From Candidatus Electronema sp. PJ (lineage in GTDB: Bacteria > Desulfobacterota > Desulfobulbia > Desulfobulbales > Desulfobulbaceae), in assembly GCF_048287395.1 (NCBI RefSeq), contig NZ_JBLWEO010000022.1:641-24640 (forward strand): a DNA stretch of 24,000 nucleotides, given 5' to 3'. Every line of letters starts with the position of its first letter. Position 1 is the first letter of the stretch. Below, piece by piece: positions 11,957 through 24,000 of this stretch. Made by a program: the position numbers and the translations under genes. Under the pieces are notes generated by a model. The model ran no database searches and was not told where the DNA came from. It worked only from the letters and a program-made list of their open reading frames with translations.

Positions 11957-12059
11957 AAACCAATAATAGCTGACCGCTCATTTCGCTTGATTTTTTTCGG
12001 AGATGCCCGGAAATCAGGCGGCAGGGATGGAAAAATTAACAGAAACGGAGAGTTGGAAG

Positions 12060-13115
12060 ATGAAGACAAAGATGTTGCTACAGACTGCGGCACTGTTGCT
12101 GCTGTCCGCAGGTGTTGTTCATGCTGGAGGAAAGTTCGGCAAAAAGCATTGGACCTGCGATGATTGCTCGCCAGAGTGCCTGCAAAATCCCTATGCGAAA
12201 GGCTGCCCTGATATCTGTAAATCTCCTGAATGTCAGACCTCCTGCGAAAAATGCCCGGCAACCTGCAAGCAGCATCCTGGCGCACCAGGCTGCCCGGAGA
12301 TCTGCAAAGACGTGCAATGCCAATCCTGTAGTGACTGCACTCCTGAATGCAAAAAGACTCCTGCTGATCCAACATGCCCGGATATCTGTAAGGACATTAA
12401 GTGCTTCTCCTGTGACGATTGCTCAGTGGACTGCATCATTAACCCGCAGGGCAAAGACTGCCCAGCAGTGTGCGCAGATCTCAATTGCAATGTCTGCGAT
12501 AAGTTCCCCAAAGACTGCCCAGCAACCTGCAAGGACAACCCGAACGATCCTGACAAATGCCGTCCTGAGTGCAAGGATGTTCCTGAAAAATGCCTGATGG
12601 CACCAGTTGATCCTACGCAACAAGACCCTACCCAACAAGAGCCTCCTTCTGAAGCAGGCCCCCTGCGCTTTGTTGGCGATCTTGGCTACTTTAAGCAGAC
12701 TGATCCCGCTGATTACGTCTTTGGCCGGATTGGTGTGGAGTACAGCCCCTTTGCCCCTGGCAGCCGCTTTGAAAACGTTTCCTTCCTGGGTATGATCGGT
12801 GTTGCCCCGCAAGTCAAAGGCGATGACGGCGATGACGCTCTGCTGTTGGATGTATTTGCCAACTACAACTGGACAGCAGGCGATGTCAATGGCTGGGTCG
12901 GTTTAGGTGTAGGCGGCTGGATTACCTCTGGCGATGTGGATGACGATTCAGGGGATACTGACATTGATGTTATGGTCAATGCAGGTGCTCGGATCTATGG
13001 CGATCCATCAGCCTTCAACGTTTCTGCTTTCTTGGAGATCCGCAGCGCAGTTGATGAGTTCGATGGTCTTGCTGAGTACGGACGCTTCGGTGGTGGTCTG
13101 CGCTTCAAGTTCTAA
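12060..13115 (+). CDS. Secreted cysteine-repeat protein 2 (five 28-aa six-Cys modules) with C-terminal OMP-like beta-barrel domain
   Basis: The ATG at 12060 has GGAG 9 nt upstream, and the track start at 12003 is less likely. Signal peptide is MKTKMLLQTAALLLLSAGVVHA. There are 30 Cys in about 146 aa (nt 12156-12593). A PTQQDPTQQEPP linker follows. The C-terminal 150 aa are about 88% identical to protein 1 and end in GLRFKF. Confidence 0.85.
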   Translation: MKTKMLLQTAALLLLSAGVVHAGGKFGKKHWTCDDCSPECLQNPYAKGCPDICKSPECQTSCEKCPATCKQHPGAPGCPEICKDVQCQSCSDCTPECKKTPADPTCPDICKDIKCFSCDDCSVDCIINPQGKDCPAVCADLNCNVCDKFPKDCPATCKDNPNDPDKCRPECKDVPEKCLMAPVDPTQQDPTQQEPPSEAGPLRFVGDLGYFKQTDPADYVFGRIGVEYSPFAPGSRFENVSFLGMIGVAPQVKGDDGDDALLLDVFANYNWTAGDVNGWVGLGVGGWITSGDVDDDSGDTDIDVMVNAGARIYGDPSAFNVSAFLEIRSAVDEFDGLAEYGRFGGGLRFKF

Positions 13116-15476: not shown

Positions 15477-15875
15477 AGTTGGTCTGCATTCAGAAGCACT
15501 TTTGCATCTTCCGAAGTAGCATTCACTCGTTTGAAAGCTGGCAACAGACGTGTGGATACTCTATTCAGACATATAAACAGAGCATTTACTCGTTTGTTTG
15601 GAGCATTCAGATGTATGAAATGAGCTTTTGCATGTTCAAAAGCAGCATTCACTCGTTTGAAAGATGGCAACGGACGTGTGAACAGAGCTTTTGGATGTCC
15701 AGAAACAGTGCTCACTCGTTTGTTAAGAGGATTTGGATATCTAAAAGCTCTATTTAGACATATAAATGGAGTGTTCATACGTTTGAATGCAGCATTTACT
15801 CGTCTGTTTGCTCATAACAAACGAGTGAATACTCCAAGCACTCGTTGAAAAACTGTTTGCACACGAGCAAAAACC
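15477..15875. repeat. Family B 21-nt tandem repeat array with 63-nt higher-order period (about 19 units)
   Basis: The unit is about GCATTCACTCGTTTGAAAGNN. Best-conserved copies start at 15519, 15582, 15645, 15708 and 15771 (63-nt steps), then 15792. Weaker units fill every 21-nt slot. An inverted unit (CAAACGAGTGAAT, 15818-15830) lies near the right end. All six frames are largely free of stop codons, as expected for a repeat. Confidence 0.85.
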
Positions 15876-15888
15876 GGGCCGAAACCTG

Positions 15889-16005
15889 CTAAACCACCTT
15901 CCCTTGCTGCCCTGCCAGCTTTTCCTTCAGCGTGGCGTGGTTTTTCTGAACAAGATCAATATTTGGATGGCCGCCGGGGAATTTATTGTTCATGATGGCA
16001 ATGAT
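15889..16005 (-). pseudogene. Relic 2 of a TPR-protein C-terminus
   Basis: The minus-strand frame reads IIAIMNNKFPGGHPNIDLVQKNHATLKEKLAGQQGKVV*. This aligns with the C-terminus of the 16932-18179 protein (ILQAKLPAGHSRISGCQKDYDEMKEKMAGL). An in-frame stop lies immediately upstream. Confidence 0.45.
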
Positions 16006-16012
16006 TCATTCC

Positions 16013-16075
16013 GTAGGGGCAAGCCCCTGTGCTTGCCCTAAGACATTCCGGGCAGGCACAGGGGCCTGCCCCTAC
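16013..16075. repeat. GTAGGGGC...GCCCCTAC palindromic (REP-like) element
   Basis: GTAGGGGCAAGCCCCTGTGCTTGCCC (16013-16038) and GGGCAGGCACAGGGGCCTGCCCCTAC (16050-16075) are inverted repeats with 2 mismatches and an 11-nt loop. The right arm overlaps the stop codon of relic 1. Confidence 0.75.
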
Positions 16076-16206
16076 ACCCCCGCCATCTTCTCCTTCATCT
16101 CATCGCAGTCCTTCTGGCAGCCGATGATGCGCGAATGCCCGGCAGGGAATTTTACCTGCATGATGGCCAAGGCGCGTTGGTGCAGCAGCTCGTCTTTCTC
16201 GTGCAT
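16072..16206 (-). pseudogene. Relic 1 of the TPR-gene 3' end
   Basis: The segment 16066-16180 aligns base-for-base with 16926-17040. There are only 3 mismatches in the first ~75 nt, and it decays after that. It translates as ...LLHQRALAIMQVKFPAGHSRIIGCQKDCDEMKEKMAGV*. An upstream in-frame stop lies at 16255-16257. Confidence 0.65.
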
Positions 16207-16278
16207 CACAGCCTGCGGGCCGTTCCTTGCGCATATTCCTTCCTCGCTTTCCCCTCAGCTTGCTGAAATAGCTCCAAA

Positions 16279-16548
16279 TCACTTTTTGAACAGCTCGGAA
16301 TGTGAACCTGTCCGCTCCAAAAACAGATCATCGCCAACATATCGGTAGATCAGAATCCAGTCCGGTTCAATATGGCAATCACGGTGTCCTTTCCACTTGC
16401 CTGTCAGCTGATGATCCCGATACTTGGGAGGCGGAGCTTCCCCCTGCAACAGCATTTCGACAACCTCTCTGAGTTTGACAATATCTCTGTTCTGTTTCTG
16501 AGCCTTTTTGTAATCCCGTTTGAACTGCCCGGTGTAATGCAGATTCAA
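16279..16548 (-). CDS. yafQ: Type II toxin, YafQ/RelE-family mRNA interferase
   Basis: The 89-aa ORF closely parallels E. coli YafQ (YKDH.L.G.WKG.RD.H.EPDWILIY...ERTG.H..LF). Confidence 0.85.
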   Translation of the reverse strand: MNLHYTGQFKRDYKKAQKQNRDIVKLREVVEMLLQGEAPPPKYRDHQLTGKWKGHRDCHIEPDWILIYRYVGDDLFLERTGSHSELFKK

Positions 16549-16805
16549 TTGTCCAGCTCCTGGAACAGCTCGTCAACAGAGGCAGCCTGCCGGACATCCT
16601 TTCCCTGTTCGGCAGCGGCCAAAGTTTTTGCCGTTACCTTGTTGGGGATTTTGACCTCAAAGGGAATTTTTTGCTGCTGTGCAATTTGGGACAGATAGAG
16701 CGAGATTGCCTCGGCCATAGACATGTTCAGCCTCCTGAGCACTTTCCTGGCATTCTGCTTGATCTCCGGGTCAACGCGGGTATGAACGGCTGCTGTCTTC
16801 AACAT
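16545..16805 (-). CDS. dinJ: Type II antitoxin, DinJ/RelB family
   Basis: The 86-aa ORF has an RHH-type N-terminus (VHTRVDPEIKQNARKVLRRLNMSMAEAISLYL) and IPFEV like DinJ. It has a 4-nt ATGA overlap with yafQ. Confidence 0.85.
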   Translation of the reverse strand: MLKTAAVHTRVDPEIKQNARKVLRRLNMSMAEAISLYLSQIAQQQKIPFEVKIPNKVTAKTLAAAEQGKDVRQAASVDELFQELDN

Positions 16806-16907
16806 AATATACTCCTGATGGGTTGGTTGTGCTTGAACAGGGTGTTCACAAGCAGTCTATCTCTTTCTTTGCAGCGAGACAAGCAGGCGGACGAACGGAT
16901 GCACCCT

Positions 16908-16935
16908 GTAAGGGCGTTTCGCGAAACGCCCCTAC
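16908..16935. repeat. GTAGGGGC-type palindrome at the TPR gene stop
   Basis: On the minus strand, GTAGGGGCGTTTCGCGAAACGCCCTTAC. The TAG stop (16932-16934) is embedded in the left arm, the same arrangement as at 16072-16075. Confidence 0.6.
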
Positions 16936-18179
16936 AACCCCGCCATCTTCTCCTTCATCTCATCGTAGTCCTTCTGGCAGCCGCTGATGCGCGAATGCCC
17001 GGCAGGAAGTTTTGCCTGCAAGATGGACAGGGCGCGTTGGAACAGTGGCTCCGCTTCCTCGTATCGTCCTTGATCGCGGTAGAGATTGGCTAAGGTACGT
17101 AAGGTGGTTGTCACATGCGAATGCTCTTTGCCTAGAGCTTGCTCAAAAATCTCCAGTGAGCGCTTGCACAGCGGCTCGGCTTCGGCATATCTTCCTTGGT
17201 AGCGGTAGAGATTGGCCAGAGTGCGCAGAATAGCGGCCACATGCAAATATTCTATGCCAGTAGCTTGCTCCCAAATCTCCAGTGAACGCTTATACAGCGG
17301 CTCGGCGGCATTGTATCTGCCCTGATACTCATAACACCACGCCAGTTCATGCGCTGCGCGAGCAAAATCAAGTCCGTCTTTGTCCTCCTCTTCCCTTATT
17401 CGCAGCAGCCGTTCCAGCCATTCCTGCGCCTGTGCATGGTTGAATAGCGTCCTAGCCATCTGTCCTGCCGCCAGCAAATAGTCCGGGTTGTCCCTCTCCA
17501 GCAGCACGGCTACCCGGTATAGCTCCATCGCCTCGGCATAGTTCACTTCGCTTTCGGCCAGCTTCCCTTCGTGGTGCGCCGCCAAGGCCGCCGCTTTGCC
17601 CGCCTGCTTGCGCACCTCGGCAAAGGTCTCTTTCGCCGCCTTGGTGTCGCCCTGCCGCAGACTGACCTGCGCCTTTTCGATCCGCGCATCCGGCATCTGG
17701 CATTTCATCTGGTCAAGAGCCTCGTCCGCAGCCTTGCGGCGCAGCTGCTCCTCCTTCCAGCTCTCCCGGATGTCGGTCAAATGCTCCTGCACCCCCTGCA
17801 ACTGCGCTTCAAGAAGCTGCCGCTGCTTGTCGTCGGCCATTGAACCGGAGGCTTGCAGATCAAGAATCTGCTGGCGCAGGGTTTTCAGCTCCTCCTCATA
17901 CTGACGCATCCCGTCGGGCTTGTCCGCTGGCTTCCAGTTCTTGACTTTATCGGCGATAAAAAACAAGAAAGCAAGCATCGCAGGAATCCAAACAGCCTTG
18001 TCATCCTTGCCCAAGAAGATCACAGCGGCCATGACGAAGAGGATAAGGAAGAAAATTAGATGCGGCAGCCGTCCTTTGCGCTCGCCGCATTTGAGCAGCA
18101 GGGCAAAAACAAGCAGGCTGTAGCAAATCAACAGCAGCGGCTGCTGATATTGGGTTATCCAGACGCTCGCATTCTTCAT
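16932..18179 (-). CDS. Membrane-anchored coiled-coil / TPR-repeat protein (kinesin-light-chain-like TPR_10/12 repeats)
   Basis: GGAGG lies 9 nt before the ATG. There are three N-terminal TM helices and a coiled-coil segment of about 100 aa. Tandem 42-aa TPR pairs follow (LANLYRYQGRYAEAEPLCKRSLEIFEQALGKEH...). Confidence 0.85.
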   Translation of the reverse strand: MKNASVWITQYQQPLLLICYSLLVFALLLKCGERKGRLPHLIFFLILFVMAAVIFLGKDDKAVWIPAMLAFLFFIADKVKNWKPADKPDGMRQYEEELKTLRQQILDLQASGSMADDKQRQLLEAQLQGVQEHLTDIRESWKEEQLRRKAADEALDQMKCQMPDARIEKAQVSLRQGDTKAAKETFAEVRKQAGKAAALAAHHEGKLAESEVNYAEAMELYRVAVLLERDNPDYLLAAGQMARTLFNHAQAQEWLERLLRIREEEDKDGLDFARAAHELAWCYEYQGRYNAAEPLYKRSLEIWEQATGIEYLHVAAILRTLANLYRYQGRYAEAEPLCKRSLEIFEQALGKEHSHVTTTLRTLANLYRDQGRYEEAEPLFQRALSILQAKLPAGHSRISGCQKDYDEMKEKMAGL

Positions 18180-18353
18180 GAGGCATTCCTCCAGGTGTGT
18201 TCCGGCACTCTACCAGAATATCTGAAGAAAAGGGAGAAGAGCGCGTTACTGTCAGTCGCTCGCCATGAAAAAAGGCTTGCCTGTCCAGTGCTGCATCTAT
18301 TACTCTTCCTGCATTTTTTCTTTTCCGCCGCTGACCACTGCTAAGATTCCATC

Positions 18354-21152: not shown

Positions 21153-21860
21153 GTTTACCCTTGAAGCCTACGGCAGCAAAGAACCTATGGCACCCATGAT
21201 AGTGCCCGCCGCTATCCACGCAAAACCAACTAGCAGCTGTTTTAACTCTTTTTTATTATCATCCTTGATTCTGTTAATTTCACTTTTGATAATGGATTTC
21301 AAACCTCCTATCGATTCCGCAAGATTTTCTATCCTCCGCTCATGAAGTATGATATACATGTCAAGTGTATTTGTATTTACAAAAAGATTACTAATCCTTT
21401 CATTCGAAGATTTTTTTGGATCATCTTTTATTACACCAGGCCCTCCAGACAAAGAGCCAATAAAGCCAATAGCCGCATCGATATTAGCTTCAACAGCACC
21501 ATTGATATTGCGGGCGGGATATTCTCCGATCCATTTCTTTATAAGTTGATATACTTCTAATAAACCTACCGTTGTCTGCGCCATTCCTCCCAGTTCAAGT
21601 ACACAGCCTAACGCTGTGAATGCCTTGTTATTCCATCCAAGTATCCAACAGATCGCTAAGAAAGCAACAACAACGAAGGCACCTCCAAAAACATCTTTTC
21701 CACTACGAAGCCAAAGCAACACCTCTTTGCTCCAGCTTCGCAGCCGCTTATAATCGAAGGAGGCAATCTTTGTGCAAAGATACTTTGCGATAAAAAGGAA
21801 GGATAGAGCAGCAATGAAATAAATGCACATGGATATATCTAAGCCTCCCTCACCCCCATC
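21135..21860. mobile_element. Putative inserted AT-rich islet (726 bp, one gene, no recombinase)
   Basis: It is bounded by the exact 17-nt direct repeat. Hand counts of six 60-nt lines inside (21241-21600) give 23-47% G+C, against 65% for 21901-21960 in the adjacent gene. Confidence 0.35.
21168..21830 (-). CDS. Hypothetical membrane protein (3 N-terminal TM helices, coiled-coil, C-terminal TM helix), AT-rich
   Basis: The 220-aa ORF starts 8 nt after the radical-SAM stop. TM segments are CIYFIAALSFLFIA, FGGAFVVVAFLAICWILGW and LVGFAWIAAGTIMGAIGSLL. A charged helical stretch reads IENLAESIGGLKSIIKSEINRIKDDNKKELKQL. I recognise no family. Confidence 0.65.
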   Translation of the reverse strand: MCIYFIAALSFLFIAKYLCTKIASFDYKRLRSWSKEVLLWLRSGKDVFGGAFVVVAFLAICWILGWNNKAFTALGCVLELGGMAQTTVGLLEVYQLIKKWIGEYPARNINGAVEANIDAAIGFIGSLSGGPGVIKDDPKKSSNERISNLFVNTNTLDMYIILHERRIENLAESIGGLKSIIKSEINRIKDDNKKELKQLLVGFAWIAAGTIMGAIGSLLP

Positions 21861-24000
21861 TTCACAATCCGCACCAGCTCCGCCTGCTCGTCCTGCAAAC
21901 CAAACACCGCTGCCAGCGTATCCCTTGGCCCGACACCCGCCTCGGCGCAGGGATGATAGAGGTCAAGCAGCAGCCTGCCGCCTTCGCCCAGCTCCAGCTT
22001 CCTGACGAACTCCTTCAGATCAAACTCACGGCTTTTACCCTTGCGGCGGCGTTCCAGCAGGAAGCGTTCCGTGATCTGAAAGGCGGCGATGCTGTCTCTT
22101 GCCTGCTCTGCATCCACACCCTCCGGCAGCAGGCAGTCATAGCTGATGATCTCATTGACCGGGGCTTTTTTCTTGGCCAAAGCAAGGGCAGTGATCGCCA
22201 TGAAGCTCGGCAGCTGGCGGTTCAGCTCGGCCATGACCTCCGCCGGGCGGCGGACAGGTTCAGCCAGATCAACCTCAAAGAACTCCATCTCGCTTTCCAC
22301 GCCCACCGGCAAGGCCGGGCTGAAGGTGACGCGCGGCGTTGGATTGAAGCCCTGCGAGAAGAGCACCGGCAGCCCGGCCCGCTGCAAGGCGCGGAAGACG
22401 AGGTTGAGCAGCTCCAGATGCCCAATGAAGCGGCCGTCGCCAAGGCGTGAGTAATCGGCGCGGTAGCGGAAAATGGTCGGCTGACTGTTCTTGTCCCGCT
22501 CTTGCTTAGGAACCGCAGGCCCGGTGCTTGCTGCTGCCTCCTTTGGCGGATTGACCAGCGGCCTGATGCTCTTGAAATCACAGAGGCCGCAGTTCTGGCA
22601 GCCCTGATTGCGGCAGTCAGGGGTATAAGCGCGCTCCATCGCTCGCTCGTATTCGCGCTCCAAGAAACTGCGGTCAACACCACTGCTGAGGTGATCCCAA
22701 GGCAGGACTTCGCTGCGGTCGCGCTGACGCAGGTAGAATTCGAGATCAATGCCGACGCGCTCCGCCGCCTGCTGCCAGCGGGCGAGCGAGAAATGCTCGT
22801 TCCAGCCGTCGAGCCGCGCTCCGTCCCGCCACGCCTCTTCCAATAAACGAGAAAGCCTGCGGTCGCCGCGCGAGAACACGCCTTCGAGCAGGCATTGCTC
22901 CGGGTCGTGCCACTTGAGCTTGTAGCCCTTGGGCGGCAGCTTCTTCATCAGCCGCTGGATGCGCTCTTTGGACTCATCGAGCGAAATCTGGCTGCACCAC
23001 TGGAACGGCGTGTGCGGCTTCGGCACAAAGGTGGAAACCGAGACGTTGATGTCCGCTTTCTTGCCGCTGGCCTCGCGCCGCGCCCGCGCCGCCAAGTCAA
23101 CTATCGCGTCCACATCCTCCAGCGTCTCGGTGGGCAGGCCAATCATGAAATAAAACTTGAGCACGCTCCAGCCCGCATTGAAGGCATCGCGGCAGCCTGC
23201 GAGCAAGTCGGCCTCGGTGATGCCCTTGTTGATCACCTCGCGCAGCCGGTCAGTGCCTGCTTCCGGCGCGACCGTGAAGCCGGTCTTGCGCACTCGCCTA
23301 ATCTGGGCAATCACCTCTGGGGTGAGGGTGCCAACCCGCATCGAGGGCAGAGAGATCGAGACGCGCTCCTCGGCGAAGCGGTCCATCAGCTTGGTCAGCA
23401 GCTCCGGCAGGCAGGAGTAGTCGCCGGTGGAGAGCGAGAGCAGGGCCAGCTCGCCAAAGCCGGAGTTCTGAATGCCCTGCTCGGCCAGCTGCATCACCTG
23501 CTCAACCGTGCGTTCGCGCACCGGACGGTAGATCATCCCGGCCTGGCAGAAGCGGCAGCCGCGTGTGCAGCCCCGCGCAATCTCCACGCCGAGGCGGTCA
23601 TGCACCGGCTTGACCATCGGCACGAGCGGGCGTTCGAGCAGCTCGGTCGGCGGCAGTTGCGGGACAATACGGCGGCGAATGTGTGTATAGCCCGGCTTGA
23701 GCGGGATGACAGCCTTGAGCTGCTGGCCTTCATACTGCGGCTCAAAGAAGGACGGCACGTACACGCCCGCAATCTCCGCCAGCCGGTGCAGCTTTTCTTG
23801 GCGCGAGAGGCCGTCACGCTTGGCCGCACGCAAGGCAGCCGCAATCTCCAGAATCACCTCCTCGCCGTCACCAAGGACAACAGCATCAAAGAAATCCGCC
23901 AGCGGCTCCGGGTTCATCGAGCAGGAGCCGCCGCCGATGACCAAGGGCGCGTCCTCGCCGCGCTCCGCCGCCCGCAGCGGAATCTGCGCCAGATCAAGGA
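21839..24000 (-). CDS. Radical SAM protein, B12-binding-like N-domain plus fused DUF2344-type C-domain (TIGR03960/TIGR03936-like), 5' partial
   Basis: CTRGCRFCQAG is the CxxxCxxC radical-SAM motif. The C-terminal ~230 aa (IFRYRADYSRLGDGRFIGHLELLNLVFRALQRAGLPV..FSQGFNP) resemble DUF2344. The reading frame stays open to nt 24000, so the track start at 23944 (a TTG) is an artefact. Confidence 0.88.
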   Translation of the reverse strand, partial: LDLAQIPLRAAERGEDAPLVIGGGSCSMNPEPLADFFDAVVLGDGEEVILEIAAALRAAKRDGLSRQEKLHRLAEIAGVYVPSFFEPQYEGQQLKAVIPLKPGYTHIRRRIVPQLPPTELLERPLVPMVKPVHDRLGVEIARGCTRGCRFCQAGMIYRPVRERTVEQVMQLAEQGIQNSGFGELALLSLSTGDYSCLPELLTKLMDRFAEERVSISLPSMRVGTLTPEVIAQIRRVRKTGFTVAPEAGTDRLREVINKGITEADLLAGCRDAFNAGWSVLKFYFMIGLPTETLEDVDAIVDLAARARREASGKKADINVSVSTFVPKPHTPFQWCSQISLDESKERIQRLMKKLPPKGYKLKWHDPEQCLLEGVFSRGDRRLSRLLEEAWRDGARLDGWNEHFSLARWQQAAERVGIDLEFYLRQRDRSEVLPWDHLSSGVDRSFLEREYERAMERAYTPDCRNQGCQNCGLCDFKSIRPLVNPPKEAAASTGPAVPKQERDKNSQPTIFRYRADYSRLGDGRFIGHLELLNLVFRALQRAGLPVLFSQGFNPTPRVTFSPALPVGVESEMEFFEVDLAEPVRRPAEVMAELNRQLPSFMAITALALAKKKAPVNEIISYDCLLPEGVDAEQARDSIAAFQITERFLLERRRKGKSREFDLKEFVRKLELGEGGRLLLDLYHPCAEAGVGPRDTLAAVFGLQDEQAELVRIVKMGVREA
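21861..21877. repeat. 17-nt direct repeat, right copy (inside the radical-SAM 3' end)
   Basis: An exact match to 21118-21134. It encodes LVRIV of the intact protein. Confidence 0.8.

What the first reader, a model, noticed from the sequence alone, without database searches (positions are those of the whole stretch)
15889..17045. DinJ-YafQ module sandwiched between the TPR gene 3' end and two decayed copies of that 3' end
The last ~110 nt of the TPR gene, together with the GTAGGGGC palindrome at its stop (16926-17040), are repeated 860 nt downstream at 16066-16180. There are 3 mismatches in the first ~75 nt, and the match then decays. The dinJ-yafQ pair lies exactly between the two copies.

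A second, older relic is recognisable only at protein level (KFPGGHPNIDLVQKNHATLKEKLAG, 15889-16005) and lies a further 183 nt downstream.

This implies repeated insertion or replacement events at one point, the 3' end of this gene, with the TA module as the most recent cargo.
Basis: seen in the sequence. Interest (0 to 1): 0.6.

Follow-up and report, generated by a model that had tools for sequence, protein, structure and literature searches.

The report
Toxin-antitoxin hotspot behind a TPR gene
In this cable bacterium, the DNA just behind one conserved TPR gene is a dumping ground where toxin-antitoxin cassettes have repeatedly overwritten one another, leaving stacked stumps of earlier occupants; this is a tidy example of recombination-driven turnover, not a new kind of mobile element.

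Summary
Window 16068-16202 repeats the last 135 nt of the TPR gene (16928-17062) at 88% identity, 860 nt away, with an intact dinJ-yafQ pair in between.

The window comes from Candidatus Electronema sp. PJ. They carry other cargo at the same place: BrnT/BrnA plus a 67-nt relic (E. aureum GS), PIN/Phd-like plus an ~85-nt relic (sp. TJ), ParDE-like plus fused antitoxin fragments, or nothing.

Three corrections:
- Relic 2 is not an old copy of this gene's end. It is the 3' end of a paralogous TPR class.
- A 62-nt stump of a ParD-like antitoxin lies between yafQ and relic 1, so there are at least three layers.
- Junction positions differ between lineages and no recombinase gene is nearby, so this is not site-specific insertion.

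In the three loci that carry a TPR relic, every remnant keeps its 3' end and lacks its 5' end. The best reading is that incoming DNA recombined homologously inside the TPR gene and joined illegitimately downstream, overwriting earlier occupants from the gene side. The hotspot is well supported; the mechanism is inferred (about 0.5). It is a new variant of known recombination-driven gene-content variation.

The parts
16932..18179 (-). TPR gene (415 aa): N-terminal hydrophobic segment (a weak TgpA_N match was its only Pfam hit; no transmembrane prediction was run), a coiled-coil-like stretch (weak Filament match) and three TPR_12 units. It is a short, mosaic allele.
   Evidence: ORF. Pfam TPR_12 3.4e-34, TPR_10 2.2e-29. 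100% identical to a protein of Ca. Electronema sp. PJ. About 504 nt (4 TPR units) are missing relative to L002. Residues 236-300 are closer to paralogue P0145 (72%) than to orthologues (about 54%).
16928..17062 (-). Last 44 codons plus stop of the TPR gene. This is copy A of the 135-nt repeat.
   Evidence: D3. A 38-nt core, TGCCAGAAGGACTACGATGAGATGAAGGAGAAGATGGC, is unchanged in 9 of the 14 full orthologous gene ends listed (L004 and L005, which are more distant, aside).
16908..16935 (-). Conserved 12-bp hairpin that starts in the stop codon (GTAGGGGCGTTT-CGCG-AAACGCCCTTAC).
   Evidence: I13. In 11 orthologues 95.5% of cells are paired, 3 pairs show compensatory changes, and 0 of 500 shuffles reach the observed covariation score.
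16806..16907 (-). Spacer and presumed promoter/operator of the TA operon. The first ~35 nt are still homologous to the native TPR 3' flank of empty loci.
   Evidence: Read from the flank sequences. 90-98% identical to type B loci. No consensus promoter was found.
16545..16805 (-). dinJ / RelB-family antitoxin (86 aa), intact.
   Evidence: Pfam RelB 6.7e-15. 97-100% nt identity to L009-L014 and L019.
16279..16548 (-). yafQ toxin (89 aa), intact; overlaps dinJ by 4 nt.
   Evidence: Pfam YafQ_toxin 1.2e-35. E. coli YafQ (4ml2) 4.9e-25, with the DH..., D.H.EPDW and G.H..LF motifs aligned. The identical protein occurs on 7 other contigs.
16264..16278 (-). 15-nt tail of the DinJ-YafQ cassette (TTTGGAGCTATTTCA). 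The window and type B loci share sequence up to this point and diverge after it.
16206..16267 (-). Remnant of a ParD-like antitoxin gene: its last ~20 codons and stop, with the overlapping GTG of the ParE-like toxin. It is 5'-truncated.
   Evidence: 82.5% over 63 nt to L024 2907-2969, E 2.6e-12; alignment. The L024 partner gene is ParE_like, 4.1e-08.
16068..16202 (-). Relic 1: the last 44 codons plus stop (16072-16074) of a TPR gene of the same class, 5'-truncated and decaying (S->I and Y->C at conserved residues).
16013..16075 (.). Double hairpin with 26-nt arms, each arm starting GTAGGGGC (REP/REPIN-like). It overlaps the stop of relic 1.
   Evidence: (I4), 92% complementary. One arm is 27/27 identical to L005 7009-7035, away from any TPR gene.
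15889..16010 (-). Relic 2: the last ~40 codons of a TPR gene of a different paralogue class (IIAIMNNKFPGGHPNIDLVQKNHATLKEKLAGQQGKVV*), 5'-truncated.
   Evidence: Best matches are C-termini of paralogues P0156, P0158, P0178 and P0145. 76/94 nt to the L027 3' end, about 25 sd above shuffles.
15484..15855 (-). Array with 21-nt / 63-nt periodicity. In other loci it lies upstream of TPR-family genes; here it has no TPR gene after it. Its link to the rest is unexplained.
   Evidence: D1, D2, D5, D8; period 63, 3.6 copies.

Best explanation
The stretch behind this TPR gene is a recombinational hotspot for toxin-antitoxin cassettes. The relics are stumps of earlier occupants that were overwritten from the gene side.

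Proposed mechanism. DNA from another Electronema strain, or from a paralogous locus, carries a TPR gene end plus whatever lies behind it. It pairs by RecA-type homologous recombination inside the conserved TPR gene, which acts as the left anchor. The neighbourhood downstream of the gene differs between lineages, so there is no right-hand homology. The right end therefore joins illegitimately, at short microhomology, somewhere inside the resident sequence. Everything between the two joints is replaced. What survives of the previous occupant is its distal part, which is its 3' end.

Three such events in series account for the window:
1. A TPR gene of this class, with a double hairpin at its stop, overwrote a resident TPR gene of the paralogous class. 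That left relic 2.
2. A TPR end + hairpin + parD(-parE) segment overwrote that gene down to -135 nt. That left relic 1.
3. A TPR end + hairpin + dinJ-yafQ segment, like the one seen next to epmA in other genomes and metagenome contigs, overwrote down to the last 62 nt of parD.

Intact TA pairs may persist because losing them is toxic, while their neighbours decay; this was not tested here.

Shown: the layers, their order and polarity, the alternative cargoes in relatives, and the lack of a fixed junction or nearby recombinase. Inferred: the homologous-plus-illegitimate mechanism, the direction of transfer, and DNA uptake as the route.
For: 1. Alternative cargo behind orthologous genes. These are BrnA/BrnT + 67-nt relic (L002), Phd-like + PIN + ~85-nt relic with the native hairpin (L003), DinJ-YafQ abutting epmA (L009-L014, L019), ParD/ParE-like + fragments (L021-L026), and empty (L001, L006-L008, L020).

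2. Empty versus occupied in the same neighbourhood (rpsB | TPR | ykgJ-rplQ). L024 has 1132 nt where L020 has ~43 nt. The flanks are 78-90% identical and there is no relic there, as expected when both flanks offer homology.

3. Relics occur only where the downstream neighbourhood is not shared. All five remnants in those loci are 5'-truncated and keep their 3' end, and all but the L003 relic keep the stop codon: the ParD stump, relic 1 and relic 2 in the window, the L002 relic and the L003 relic.

4. Junctions vary: left at -10 nt, or roughly 25 to 35 nt after the hairpin; right at -67, about -85 and -135 nt.

5. No integrase, transposase or reverse transcriptase was found among the window ORFs scanned against Pfam; four of them had no Pfam hit. 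There are no tRNA genes.

6. Identity profile of the window against type B loci. It is 97-100% across the TA pair and 95-98% over the gene's last ~100 nt. It falls to about 85% and then 70% upstream of 17094. Shared sequence ends 15 nt after the yafQ stop, where 4 nt (TTCA) overlap with parD.

7. Cassette fragments are shared between loci. L024 carries a fusion of the BrnA 5' half (96.8% to L002) and the L003 antitoxin 3' end (93.7%).

8. The TPR gene lies in a different neighbourhood in each lineage, and synteny with the closest FolE2 relative breaks at 18267.
Against: - No donor and recipient pair is in hand for any event. Polarity and microhomology (4 nt, one junction only) are circumstantial.
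- The DinJ-YafQ cassette ends at the same base in two different contexts. This fits a discrete unit better than random illegitimate joints, unless one context descends from the other.
- The TA pair (97-100%) is only modestly more similar to type B loci than the gene's conserved coiled-coil part is (94.7% to L019). Shared vertical descent of TPR + TA followed by flank rearrangement is therefore not excluded.
- My early idea that the last 44 codons are unusually conserved failed its control. Synonymous identity is 0.85-0.94 there, but 0.82-0.95 in residues 91-235 too.
- The orphan array after relic 2 is not explained.
- Natural transformation is not documented for cable bacteria, to my knowledge.
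Confidence: 0.5

Rival explanations
1. Self-propagating cassette with a portable homology arm. Once a cargo sits between the gene end and a relic, gene end + cargo + relic forms a unit. The unit can loop out as a circle by recombination between the two repeats and re-enter any TPR gene by a single (Campbell-type) crossover. As a linear fragment it can enter by two crossovers, using the relic as the right arm. The duplication is then part of how the cassette moves, not a scar.
For: - L003 has the exact topology of insertion-duplication by an internal fragment. The upstream copy is cut at -10 nt and fused to cargo. The downstream copy starts at about -85 nt and runs through the native end and hairpin.
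- In L002 the upstream copy has the hairpin and the downstream copy has the native hairpin-less flank. That is expected if the crossover fell inside the shared 67 nt.
- A Logan contig appears to carry the window's yafQ-to-relic spacing behind a BrnA gene instead of the TPR gene.
Against: - Type B and type A loci carry cassettes without relics.
- Relic lengths of 67-135 nt are short for efficient RecA recombination.
- No circular junction has been observed.
- The window's relic 1 differs from the gene end at 16 of 135 positions and carries damaging substitutions, so it is not being kept matched to the gene.
Confidence: 0.17
2. Decay of tandem TPR paralogues. The locus once held two or three full-length TPR-family genes in a row with TA modules between them, and independent deletions removed all but their 3' ends.
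For: - Relic 2 belongs to a different paralogue class.
- The family has several members per genome.
- The array that normally precedes a TPR gene lies after relic 2, as it would between tandem genes.
Against: - None of the 27 loci shows tandem intact genes of this family.
- It needs three or more independent deletions that each spared only a 3' end and left the pieces abutting within a few nucleotides.
- The ParD stump shows the same polarity although it is not a TPR gene.
- L002 and L003 repeat the pattern in unrelated neighbourhoods.
Confidence: 0.15
3. Site-specific integration. An integrase encoded elsewhere inserts small TA elements into an attachment site in the 3' end of the TPR gene, and each element brings a replacement 3' end, as genomic islands do at tRNA genes.
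For: - A gene - cargo - 3'-relic layout is the classic footprint of such elements.
- The conserved hairpin at the stop could be a recognition feature.
- The DinJ-YafQ cassette has the same right end in two contexts.
Against: - Junction positions differ by tens of nucleotides on both sides between lineages.
- No common core sequence appears at left and right junctions.
- No recombinase gene is in the window or in the flanks of the occupied loci.
- Cassettes occur in both orientations.
- Insertion in type A loci leaves no duplication.
Confidence: 0.08
4. Silent-cassette variation. The 5'-truncated 3' ends are a store of alternative C-termini that are copied into the expressed gene by gene conversion, as pilS copies are into pilE in Neisseria.
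For: - The layout of promoterless 3' fragments behind an expressed gene.
- The expressed gene is a mosaic of two classes.
Against: - Only one or two relics are present. They are short, carry changes at otherwise invariant residues, and are absent from most relatives.
- Nothing suggests selection for C-terminal diversity, since the C-terminus is nearly invariant among orthologues.
Confidence: 0.03

Closest known systems
Minimal mobile elements of Neisseria (Saunders & Snyder 2002, as cited in PMC1797815)
   Same: - Alternative small gene sets occupy the same position next to conserved genes in different strains.
- No mobility genes are present.
- Exchange is attributed to DNA uptake and homologous recombination in the conserved flanks. 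That attribution is my recollection of the 2002 paper, not something read here.
- PMC1797815 reports 30 small strain-unique gene clusters that correspond to known or candidate such elements, with alternative loci at syntenic positions.
- The type A loci here (TPR | cargo or none | ykgJ) fit this description.
   Different: In the window, L002 and L003 only one flank (the TPR gene) is conserved. The other joint is not homologous and leaves truncated relics. The cargo is almost exclusively TA modules. The organism is not known to be transformable.
Homology-facilitated illegitimate recombination (de Vries & Wackernagel 2002, reference found via PMC8116780; the paper itself could not be read here)
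   Same: One-sided homologous anchor plus an illegitimate joint at a few bases of microhomology. This is from my knowledge of that work. It predicts the variable right junctions and the loss of the proximal part of the resident sequence seen here.
   Different: It was described experimentally in Acinetobacter and other transformable species. Here it is inferred only from footprints, with one candidate 4-nt microhomology.
Insertion-duplication (Campbell-type) integration by a single crossover on an internal gene fragment
   Same: It yields an upstream 3'-truncated copy, then the inserted DNA, then a downstream 5'-truncated copy. L003 matches this exactly.
   Different: It is known mainly as a laboratory method with suicide plasmids. 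A natural circular TA cassette carrying a TPR fragment has not been observed.
Genomic islands that integrate into the 3' end of tRNA, tmRNA or protein genes and restore it
   Same: The target gene stays intact and a displaced 3' fragment lies beyond the insert. Serial insertions stack up.
   Different: Those use an island-encoded integrase and an exact core repeat at both ends. Here there is no integrase, no exact core, variable junctions and inserts of only 0.6-1.1 kb.
TA cassettes in chromosomal integrons (Vibrio superintegrons)
   Same: Arrays of small TA cassettes with tight boundaries, in a dedicated chromosomal region.
   Different: No IntI integrase and no attI. No attC-like site was seen at the cassette junctions inspected by eye, but no dedicated attC search was run.
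E. coli DinJ-YafQ type II toxin-antitoxin system
   Same: Same two families, same order, overlapping genes and aligned catalytic motifs.
   Different: Nothing unusual about the module itself. Only its setting is of interest.

Membership tests
DinJ-YafQ type II toxin-antitoxin module | RelB/DinJ-family antitoxin gene directly upstream of a YafQ-family toxin gene in one operon | tested here: met
   Pfam RelB 6.7e-15 and YafQ_toxin 1.2e-35, same strand, 4-nt overlap.
DinJ-YafQ type II toxin-antitoxin module | YafQ catalytic histidines and the Asp and C-terminal Phe conserved | tested here: met
   The alignment to E. coli YafQ (4ml2, 4.9e-25) keeps DH, D.H.EPDW and G.H..LF. Which residues are catalytic is from my knowledge of the E. 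coli work.
DinJ-YafQ type II toxin-antitoxin module | Toxicity neutralised by the antitoxin | not testable with these tools
   Needs expression experiments.
Integrase-mediated integrative element at a gene 3' end | Tyrosine or serine recombinase in or next to the insert | tested here: not met
   None among the window ORFs scanned against Pfam, four of which had no hit, nor among the called genes of occupied loci.
Integrase-mediated integrative element at a gene 3' end | Same crossover core at both junctions and at the same position in independent insertions | tested here: not met
   Left junctions lie at -10 nt, or roughly 25 to 35 nt after the hairpin. Relic starts lie at -67, about -85 and -135 nt.
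Integron cassette array | IntI integrase with attI, and attC sites bounding each cassette | tested here: not met
   No integrase. Junction sequences share no imperfect-palindrome site as far as I could see by eye; no dedicated attC search was run.
Minimal mobile element (Neisseria type) | Different gene content at the same position between conserved flanking genes, without mobility genes | tested here: met
   Type A: L020, L007 and L008 are empty; L021-L026 carry 1.1 kb of TA genes between TPR and ykgJ. For the window itself only the left flank is conserved.
Minimal mobile element (Neisseria type) | Exchange by transformation and homologous recombination | not testable with these tools
   Inferred only.
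Homology-facilitated illegitimate recombination | Homology on one side only, and microhomology of a few bases at the other joint | tested here: inconclusive
   Homology on one side only is shown. One joint has a 4-nt TTCA overlap.
Diversity-generating retroelement | Reverse transcriptase plus a template repeat differing from the variable repeat at adenines | tested here: not met
   No reverse transcriptase. The mismatches visible in the alignments involve all four bases; I did not tabulate them.
REP / REPIN elements | GTAG-headed palindromes, many dispersed copies, and a RAYT transposase in the genome | tested here: inconclusive
   GTAG-headed palindromes occur at 16013-16075 and 16908-16935, and one arm recurs in E. 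halotolerans. Only a handful of copies are in about 250 kb of held sequence, and no RAYT was seen.

The most novel reading that the evidence does not exclude
TA cassettes in Electronema may spread as recombinase-free homing units. Each would carry a copy of the 3' end of a conserved, multi-copy host gene family as a built-in homology arm. Host RecA alone could then insert it behind any TPR gene in any genome. The addictive TA pair would prevent its loss.
Probability: 0.2. Interest if true: 0.7.

Novelty: new variant of a known kind. Interest (0 to 1): 0.45.

Why it matters
TA modules are known to be highly mobile, yet most chromosomal ones show no signature of how they arrived. This locus preserves an ordered stack of footprints, and six comparison states were found in relatives. 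It therefore gives a concrete and testable picture of TA turnover by ordinary recombination anchored on a conserved gene, in a lineage (cable bacteria) that cannot yet be manipulated genetically. If the portable-arm variant holds, it would be a simple and general way for selfish cassettes to target a gene family without encoding any enzyme. It also warns annotators that short ORFs such as 16072-16209 and 15889-15993 are gene stumps, and that the 415-aa TPR allele is a recombinant.

Tried and rejected
1. I first read 16203-16280 as a degraded extension of relic 1 (LELFQQAEGK resembling LEIFEQALGK, D7). From that I inferred that the 15 nt shared with type B loci were TPR-derived. An all-against-all comparison of the cargo regions showed that 16206-16267 is instead the 3' end of a ParD-like gene, so I withdrew the inference.

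2. I suspected that the last 44 codons are unusually conserved at synonymous sites (0.85-0.94). The control on residues 91-235 gave 0.82-0.95. The block is at the gene's baseline and it is the TPR-repeat middle that is hypervariable, so I dropped the claim.

3. I read the 70% identity between the gene's 5' part and L009 as proof of a mosaic. L019, in the same neighbourhood, is 94.7% identical there. The low value is specific to L009.

4. I looked by eye, without a formal motif search, for a Xer/dif-like or other shared motif at cassette boundaries (GGTGCAT after the hairpin). It appears only on the gene side and is not regenerated at right junctions.

5. I looked for the same neighbourhood without the insert. 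FolE2 relatives (96% and 90% aa) have other genes where the TPR block sits. Exact-protein look-ups for the TPR, FolE2 and AhcY ORFs as delimited in the window, and for paralogue P0166, found nothing.

6. Rfam gave only spurious miRNA hits on the double hairpin. Promoter and terminator scans were at background.

7. The Logan contig from run ERR12035942, which may show BrnTA and DinJ-YafQ stacked, has no DNA available.


Full report
**What is in the window**

All the features lie on the minus strand.
- The TPR gene is 16932-18179 (415 aa). Pfam gives three TPR_12 units. The N-terminal hydrophobic and coiled-coil parts are read from the sequence and from weak Pfam matches only.
- dinJ is 16545-16805 (RelB family). 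yafQ is 16279-16548. The two overlap by 4 nt.
- YafQ aligns over 86 residues with E. coli YafQ, and the motifs I know as catalytic are kept. The module looks functional.
- The last 75 nt differ at three positions.
- Both copies end in a stop codon embedded in GTAGGGGC, but the palindromes differ. The gene has a 28-nt hairpin. The relic has a 63-nt double hairpin at 16013-16075.
- The TPR protein is 100% identical to one from Candidatus Electronema sp. PJ. The window is therefore from a freshwater cable bacterium.

**Two corrections to the anatomy**

First, the 62 nt directly after yafQ (16206-16267) are not TPR sequence.
- They match the last ~20 codons and stop of a ParD-like antitoxin gene found behind the orthologous TPR gene in metagenome contigs L021-L026: 82.5% over 63 nt, E 2.6e-12.
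- The match includes the GTG of the overlapping ParE-like toxin.
- Relic 1 begins immediately afterwards, at codon -44.

Second, relic 2 (15889-16010) is not an older copy of this gene's end.
- Its peptide, IAIMNNKFPGGHPNIDLVQKNHATLKEKLAG, matches the C-termini of a paralogous TPR class, for example P0158 '...AIAIMNKKFPGGHPNIDVMQGNYDYMKEKMAER'.
- At DNA level it matches the 3' end of such a paralogue (L027) at 76/94 positions, about 25 standard deviations above shuffles. Against this gene's own end it is at background.

In gene orientation the order is: TPR gene, hairpin, dinJ-yafQ, ParD stump, relic 1, double hairpin, relic 2, a 21/63-nt periodic array, then ahcY. Almost no base in that stretch is unassigned.

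**Relatives**

The orthologous gene was found in five genomes, three metagenome contigs, and further contigs reached through the identical YafQ and through TPR homologues. The states behind the gene are:

| State | Loci | What lies behind the TPR gene |
|---|---|---|
| Empty | L001, L006-L008, L020 | Hairpin, then ~40 nt, then the convergent ykgJ-like gene and rplQ |
| Same neighbourhood, occupied | L021-L026 | 1132 nt replace ~43 nt. Cargo is a ParD-like + ParE-like pair plus two small reverse ORFs. One ORF fuses the BrnA 5' half (96.8% to L002) to the 3' end of the L003 antitoxin (93.7%). No TPR relic. |
| E. aureum GS | L002 | BrnA/BrnT in reverse orientation, then a 67-nt relic ending in the native, hairpin-less flank |
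| Electronema sp. TJ | L003 | The gene is cut 10 nt before its normal end. Then a Phd-like gene and a PIN gene in reverse. Then an ~85-nt relic that carries the native end and hairpin. |
| Type B | L009-L014, L019 | The same hairpin + dinJ-yafQ as in the window (97-100% identical across the TA), abutting the start of epmA, with no relic |
| Window | - | As described above |

A Logan contig without available DNA seems to have BrnA, then DinJ-YafQ, then a gene start at the window's spacing. That hints at stacked cassettes.

**Neighbourhood**

- Outside the TPR gene nothing is shared between the window and any of these loci.
- In the closest FolE2 relative (96% aa) synteny stops at 18267, between folE2 and the TPR start. 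A helicase sits there instead.
- The TPR gene therefore lies in a different neighbourhood in each lineage.
- In one metagenome the orthologue sits at rpsB | ykgJ while the paralogue class sits at relA-smr | epmA, which is the neighbourhood that type B loci use for the orthologue plus DinJ-YafQ.
- No integrase, transposase or reverse transcriptase was found among the window ORFs scanned against Pfam (four had no hit), and the window has no tRNA gene.

**What the pattern says**

- Junctions are not fixed. On the gene side they lie at -10 nt, or roughly 25 to 35 nt after the hairpin. On the far side the relics begin at -67, about -85 and -135 nt. Together with cassettes in both orientations and no recombinase, this argues against site-specific insertion and against an integron.
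- Relics appear only in the three loci whose downstream neighbourhood is not shared with other strains. Where both flanks are conserved (type A), the insertion is clean.
- All five remnants in those three loci lack their 5' part and keep their 3' end. This includes the ParD stump, which is not a TPR gene.
- That polarity is what one expects if each newcomer was anchored by homologous recombination in the TPR gene and its far end joined illegitimately inside the previous occupant.
- For the newest layer the profile fits. Identity to type B loci is 97-100% over the TA and 95-98% over the gene's last ~100 nt. It drops to about 85% and then 70% upstream of 17094. It stops 15 nt after the yafQ stop, where 4 nt (TTCA) overlap with parD.
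- L003 has the textbook topology of a single crossover on an internal fragment. This keeps open a variant in which gene end + cargo + relic moves as a unit by host recombination alone.

**Limits**

- No donor and recipient pair is available. One microhomology is thin evidence.
- The DinJ-YafQ cassette ends at the same base in two contexts. That is not what random joints predict, unless one context descends from the other.
- The TA pair is only a little more similar to type B loci than the conserved coiled-coil part of the gene is (94.7% to L019). Vertical descent of TPR + TA with later flank rearrangement is not excluded.
- Two of my own intermediate ideas failed controls. The supposed TPR extension of relic 1 proved to be the ParD stump. 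The supposed special synonymous conservation of the last 44 codons is matched by residues 91-235.
- The hairpin at the stop is a conserved structure with compensatory changes. Its role (terminator, stability element or REP-like repeat) is open.
- The array at 15484-15855 normally lies upstream of TPR-family genes in 11 other loci. Here it follows relic 2, with no TPR gene after it. This is the best argument for a past tandem arrangement, and I could not explain it.

**Comparison with what is known**

- The closest description is the minimal mobile element of Neisseria: alternative small gene sets at one position next to conserved genes, without mobility genes. Type A loci meet that description.
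- The window, L002 and L003 differ because only one flank is conserved. There the footprints look like homology-facilitated illegitimate recombination or insertion-duplication. The reference for the former was found; the paper itself could not be read, so its details are from my own knowledge.
- A full-text search found no paper describing TA cassettes at this gene in cable bacteria.

**Verdict**

Repeated replacement is right and the TA is the newest layer. It is not one point, and relic 2 is not a copy of this gene's end.
- The hotspot itself is well supported (about 0.85). The anchored-replacement mechanism is the best of the candidates (about 0.5).
- It is a new variant of known recombination-driven gene-content variation, of moderate interest.

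Noticed in passing
window 15484-15855: An array of ~18 units with 21-nt periodicity (63-nt super-period). Homologous arrays lie upstream of TPR-family genes, in the same orientation, in L003, L009, L019, L021-L026 and L027. In the window it sits downstream of relic 2 and upstream of ahcY with no TPR gene after it. There is no Rfam match.
   Followed up: partly
window 16013-16075; L005 7009-7035: A 63-nt double hairpin whose arms start with GTAGGGGC. One arm is 27/27 identical to a site in Ca. Electronema halotolerans that is far from its TPR gene. This suggests a dispersed REP/REPIN-like repeat, though few copies are present in the sequence held.
   Followed up: partly
window 16932-18179: The TPR allele is 415 aa, against 580-690 aa in orthologues. 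About 504 nt (four TPR units) are missing between 17243 and 17383. Residues 236-300 are closer to a paralogue (72%) than to orthologues (about 54%).
   Followed up: partly
window 12003-13115 (+): A 370-aa protein that, read by eye from the translation, has a signal-like start, a long run of Cys-rich C-P-x-x-C-K-like units and a Gly/Asp-rich C-terminal half. It has no Pfam match at 1e-4.
   Followed up: no
L024 3548-3766 (-): A 72-aa ORF that fuses the 5' half of BrnA (96.8% nt to L002 11946-12100) to the 3' end of the Phd-like antitoxin of L003 (93.7% nt to L003 3705-3767). It is a scar of two adjacent cassettes joined by deletion.
   Followed up: yes
L001 5860-5870: In Desulfobulbaceae UBA5173 a 32-nt deletion removes the TPR stop codon and half of the hairpin, so the ORF reads on for ~35 codons.
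   Followed up: no
Logan contig from run ERR12035942 (no DNA available): Gene calls show BrnA (-) at 33-332, DinJ at 699-959 and YafQ at 956-1225, both identical to the window's proteins, then a gene start 71 nt later, as in the window. This may be a stacked BrnTA + DinJ-YafQ array.
   Followed up: no
L015 12926-13594, 15239-15902, 20746-20953 versus window 21841-22507: The 3' part of the window's radical-SAM/DUF2344 gene matches three separate places (90-93% nt) in the closest relative's contig. That points to local duplication of DUF2344 segments there.
   Followed up: no
L005 9258-9826; L003 117-998; L015 4874-5399: Other small two-gene modules sit next to the TPR gene or near folE2 in relatives: DUF4160 + DUF2442 directly upstream of the E. 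halotolerans TPR gene, HepT-like + nucleotidyltransferase upstream of the TJ gene, and YoeB + Phd near folE2 in L015. TA-type pairs seem generally dense around these loci.
   Followed up: no
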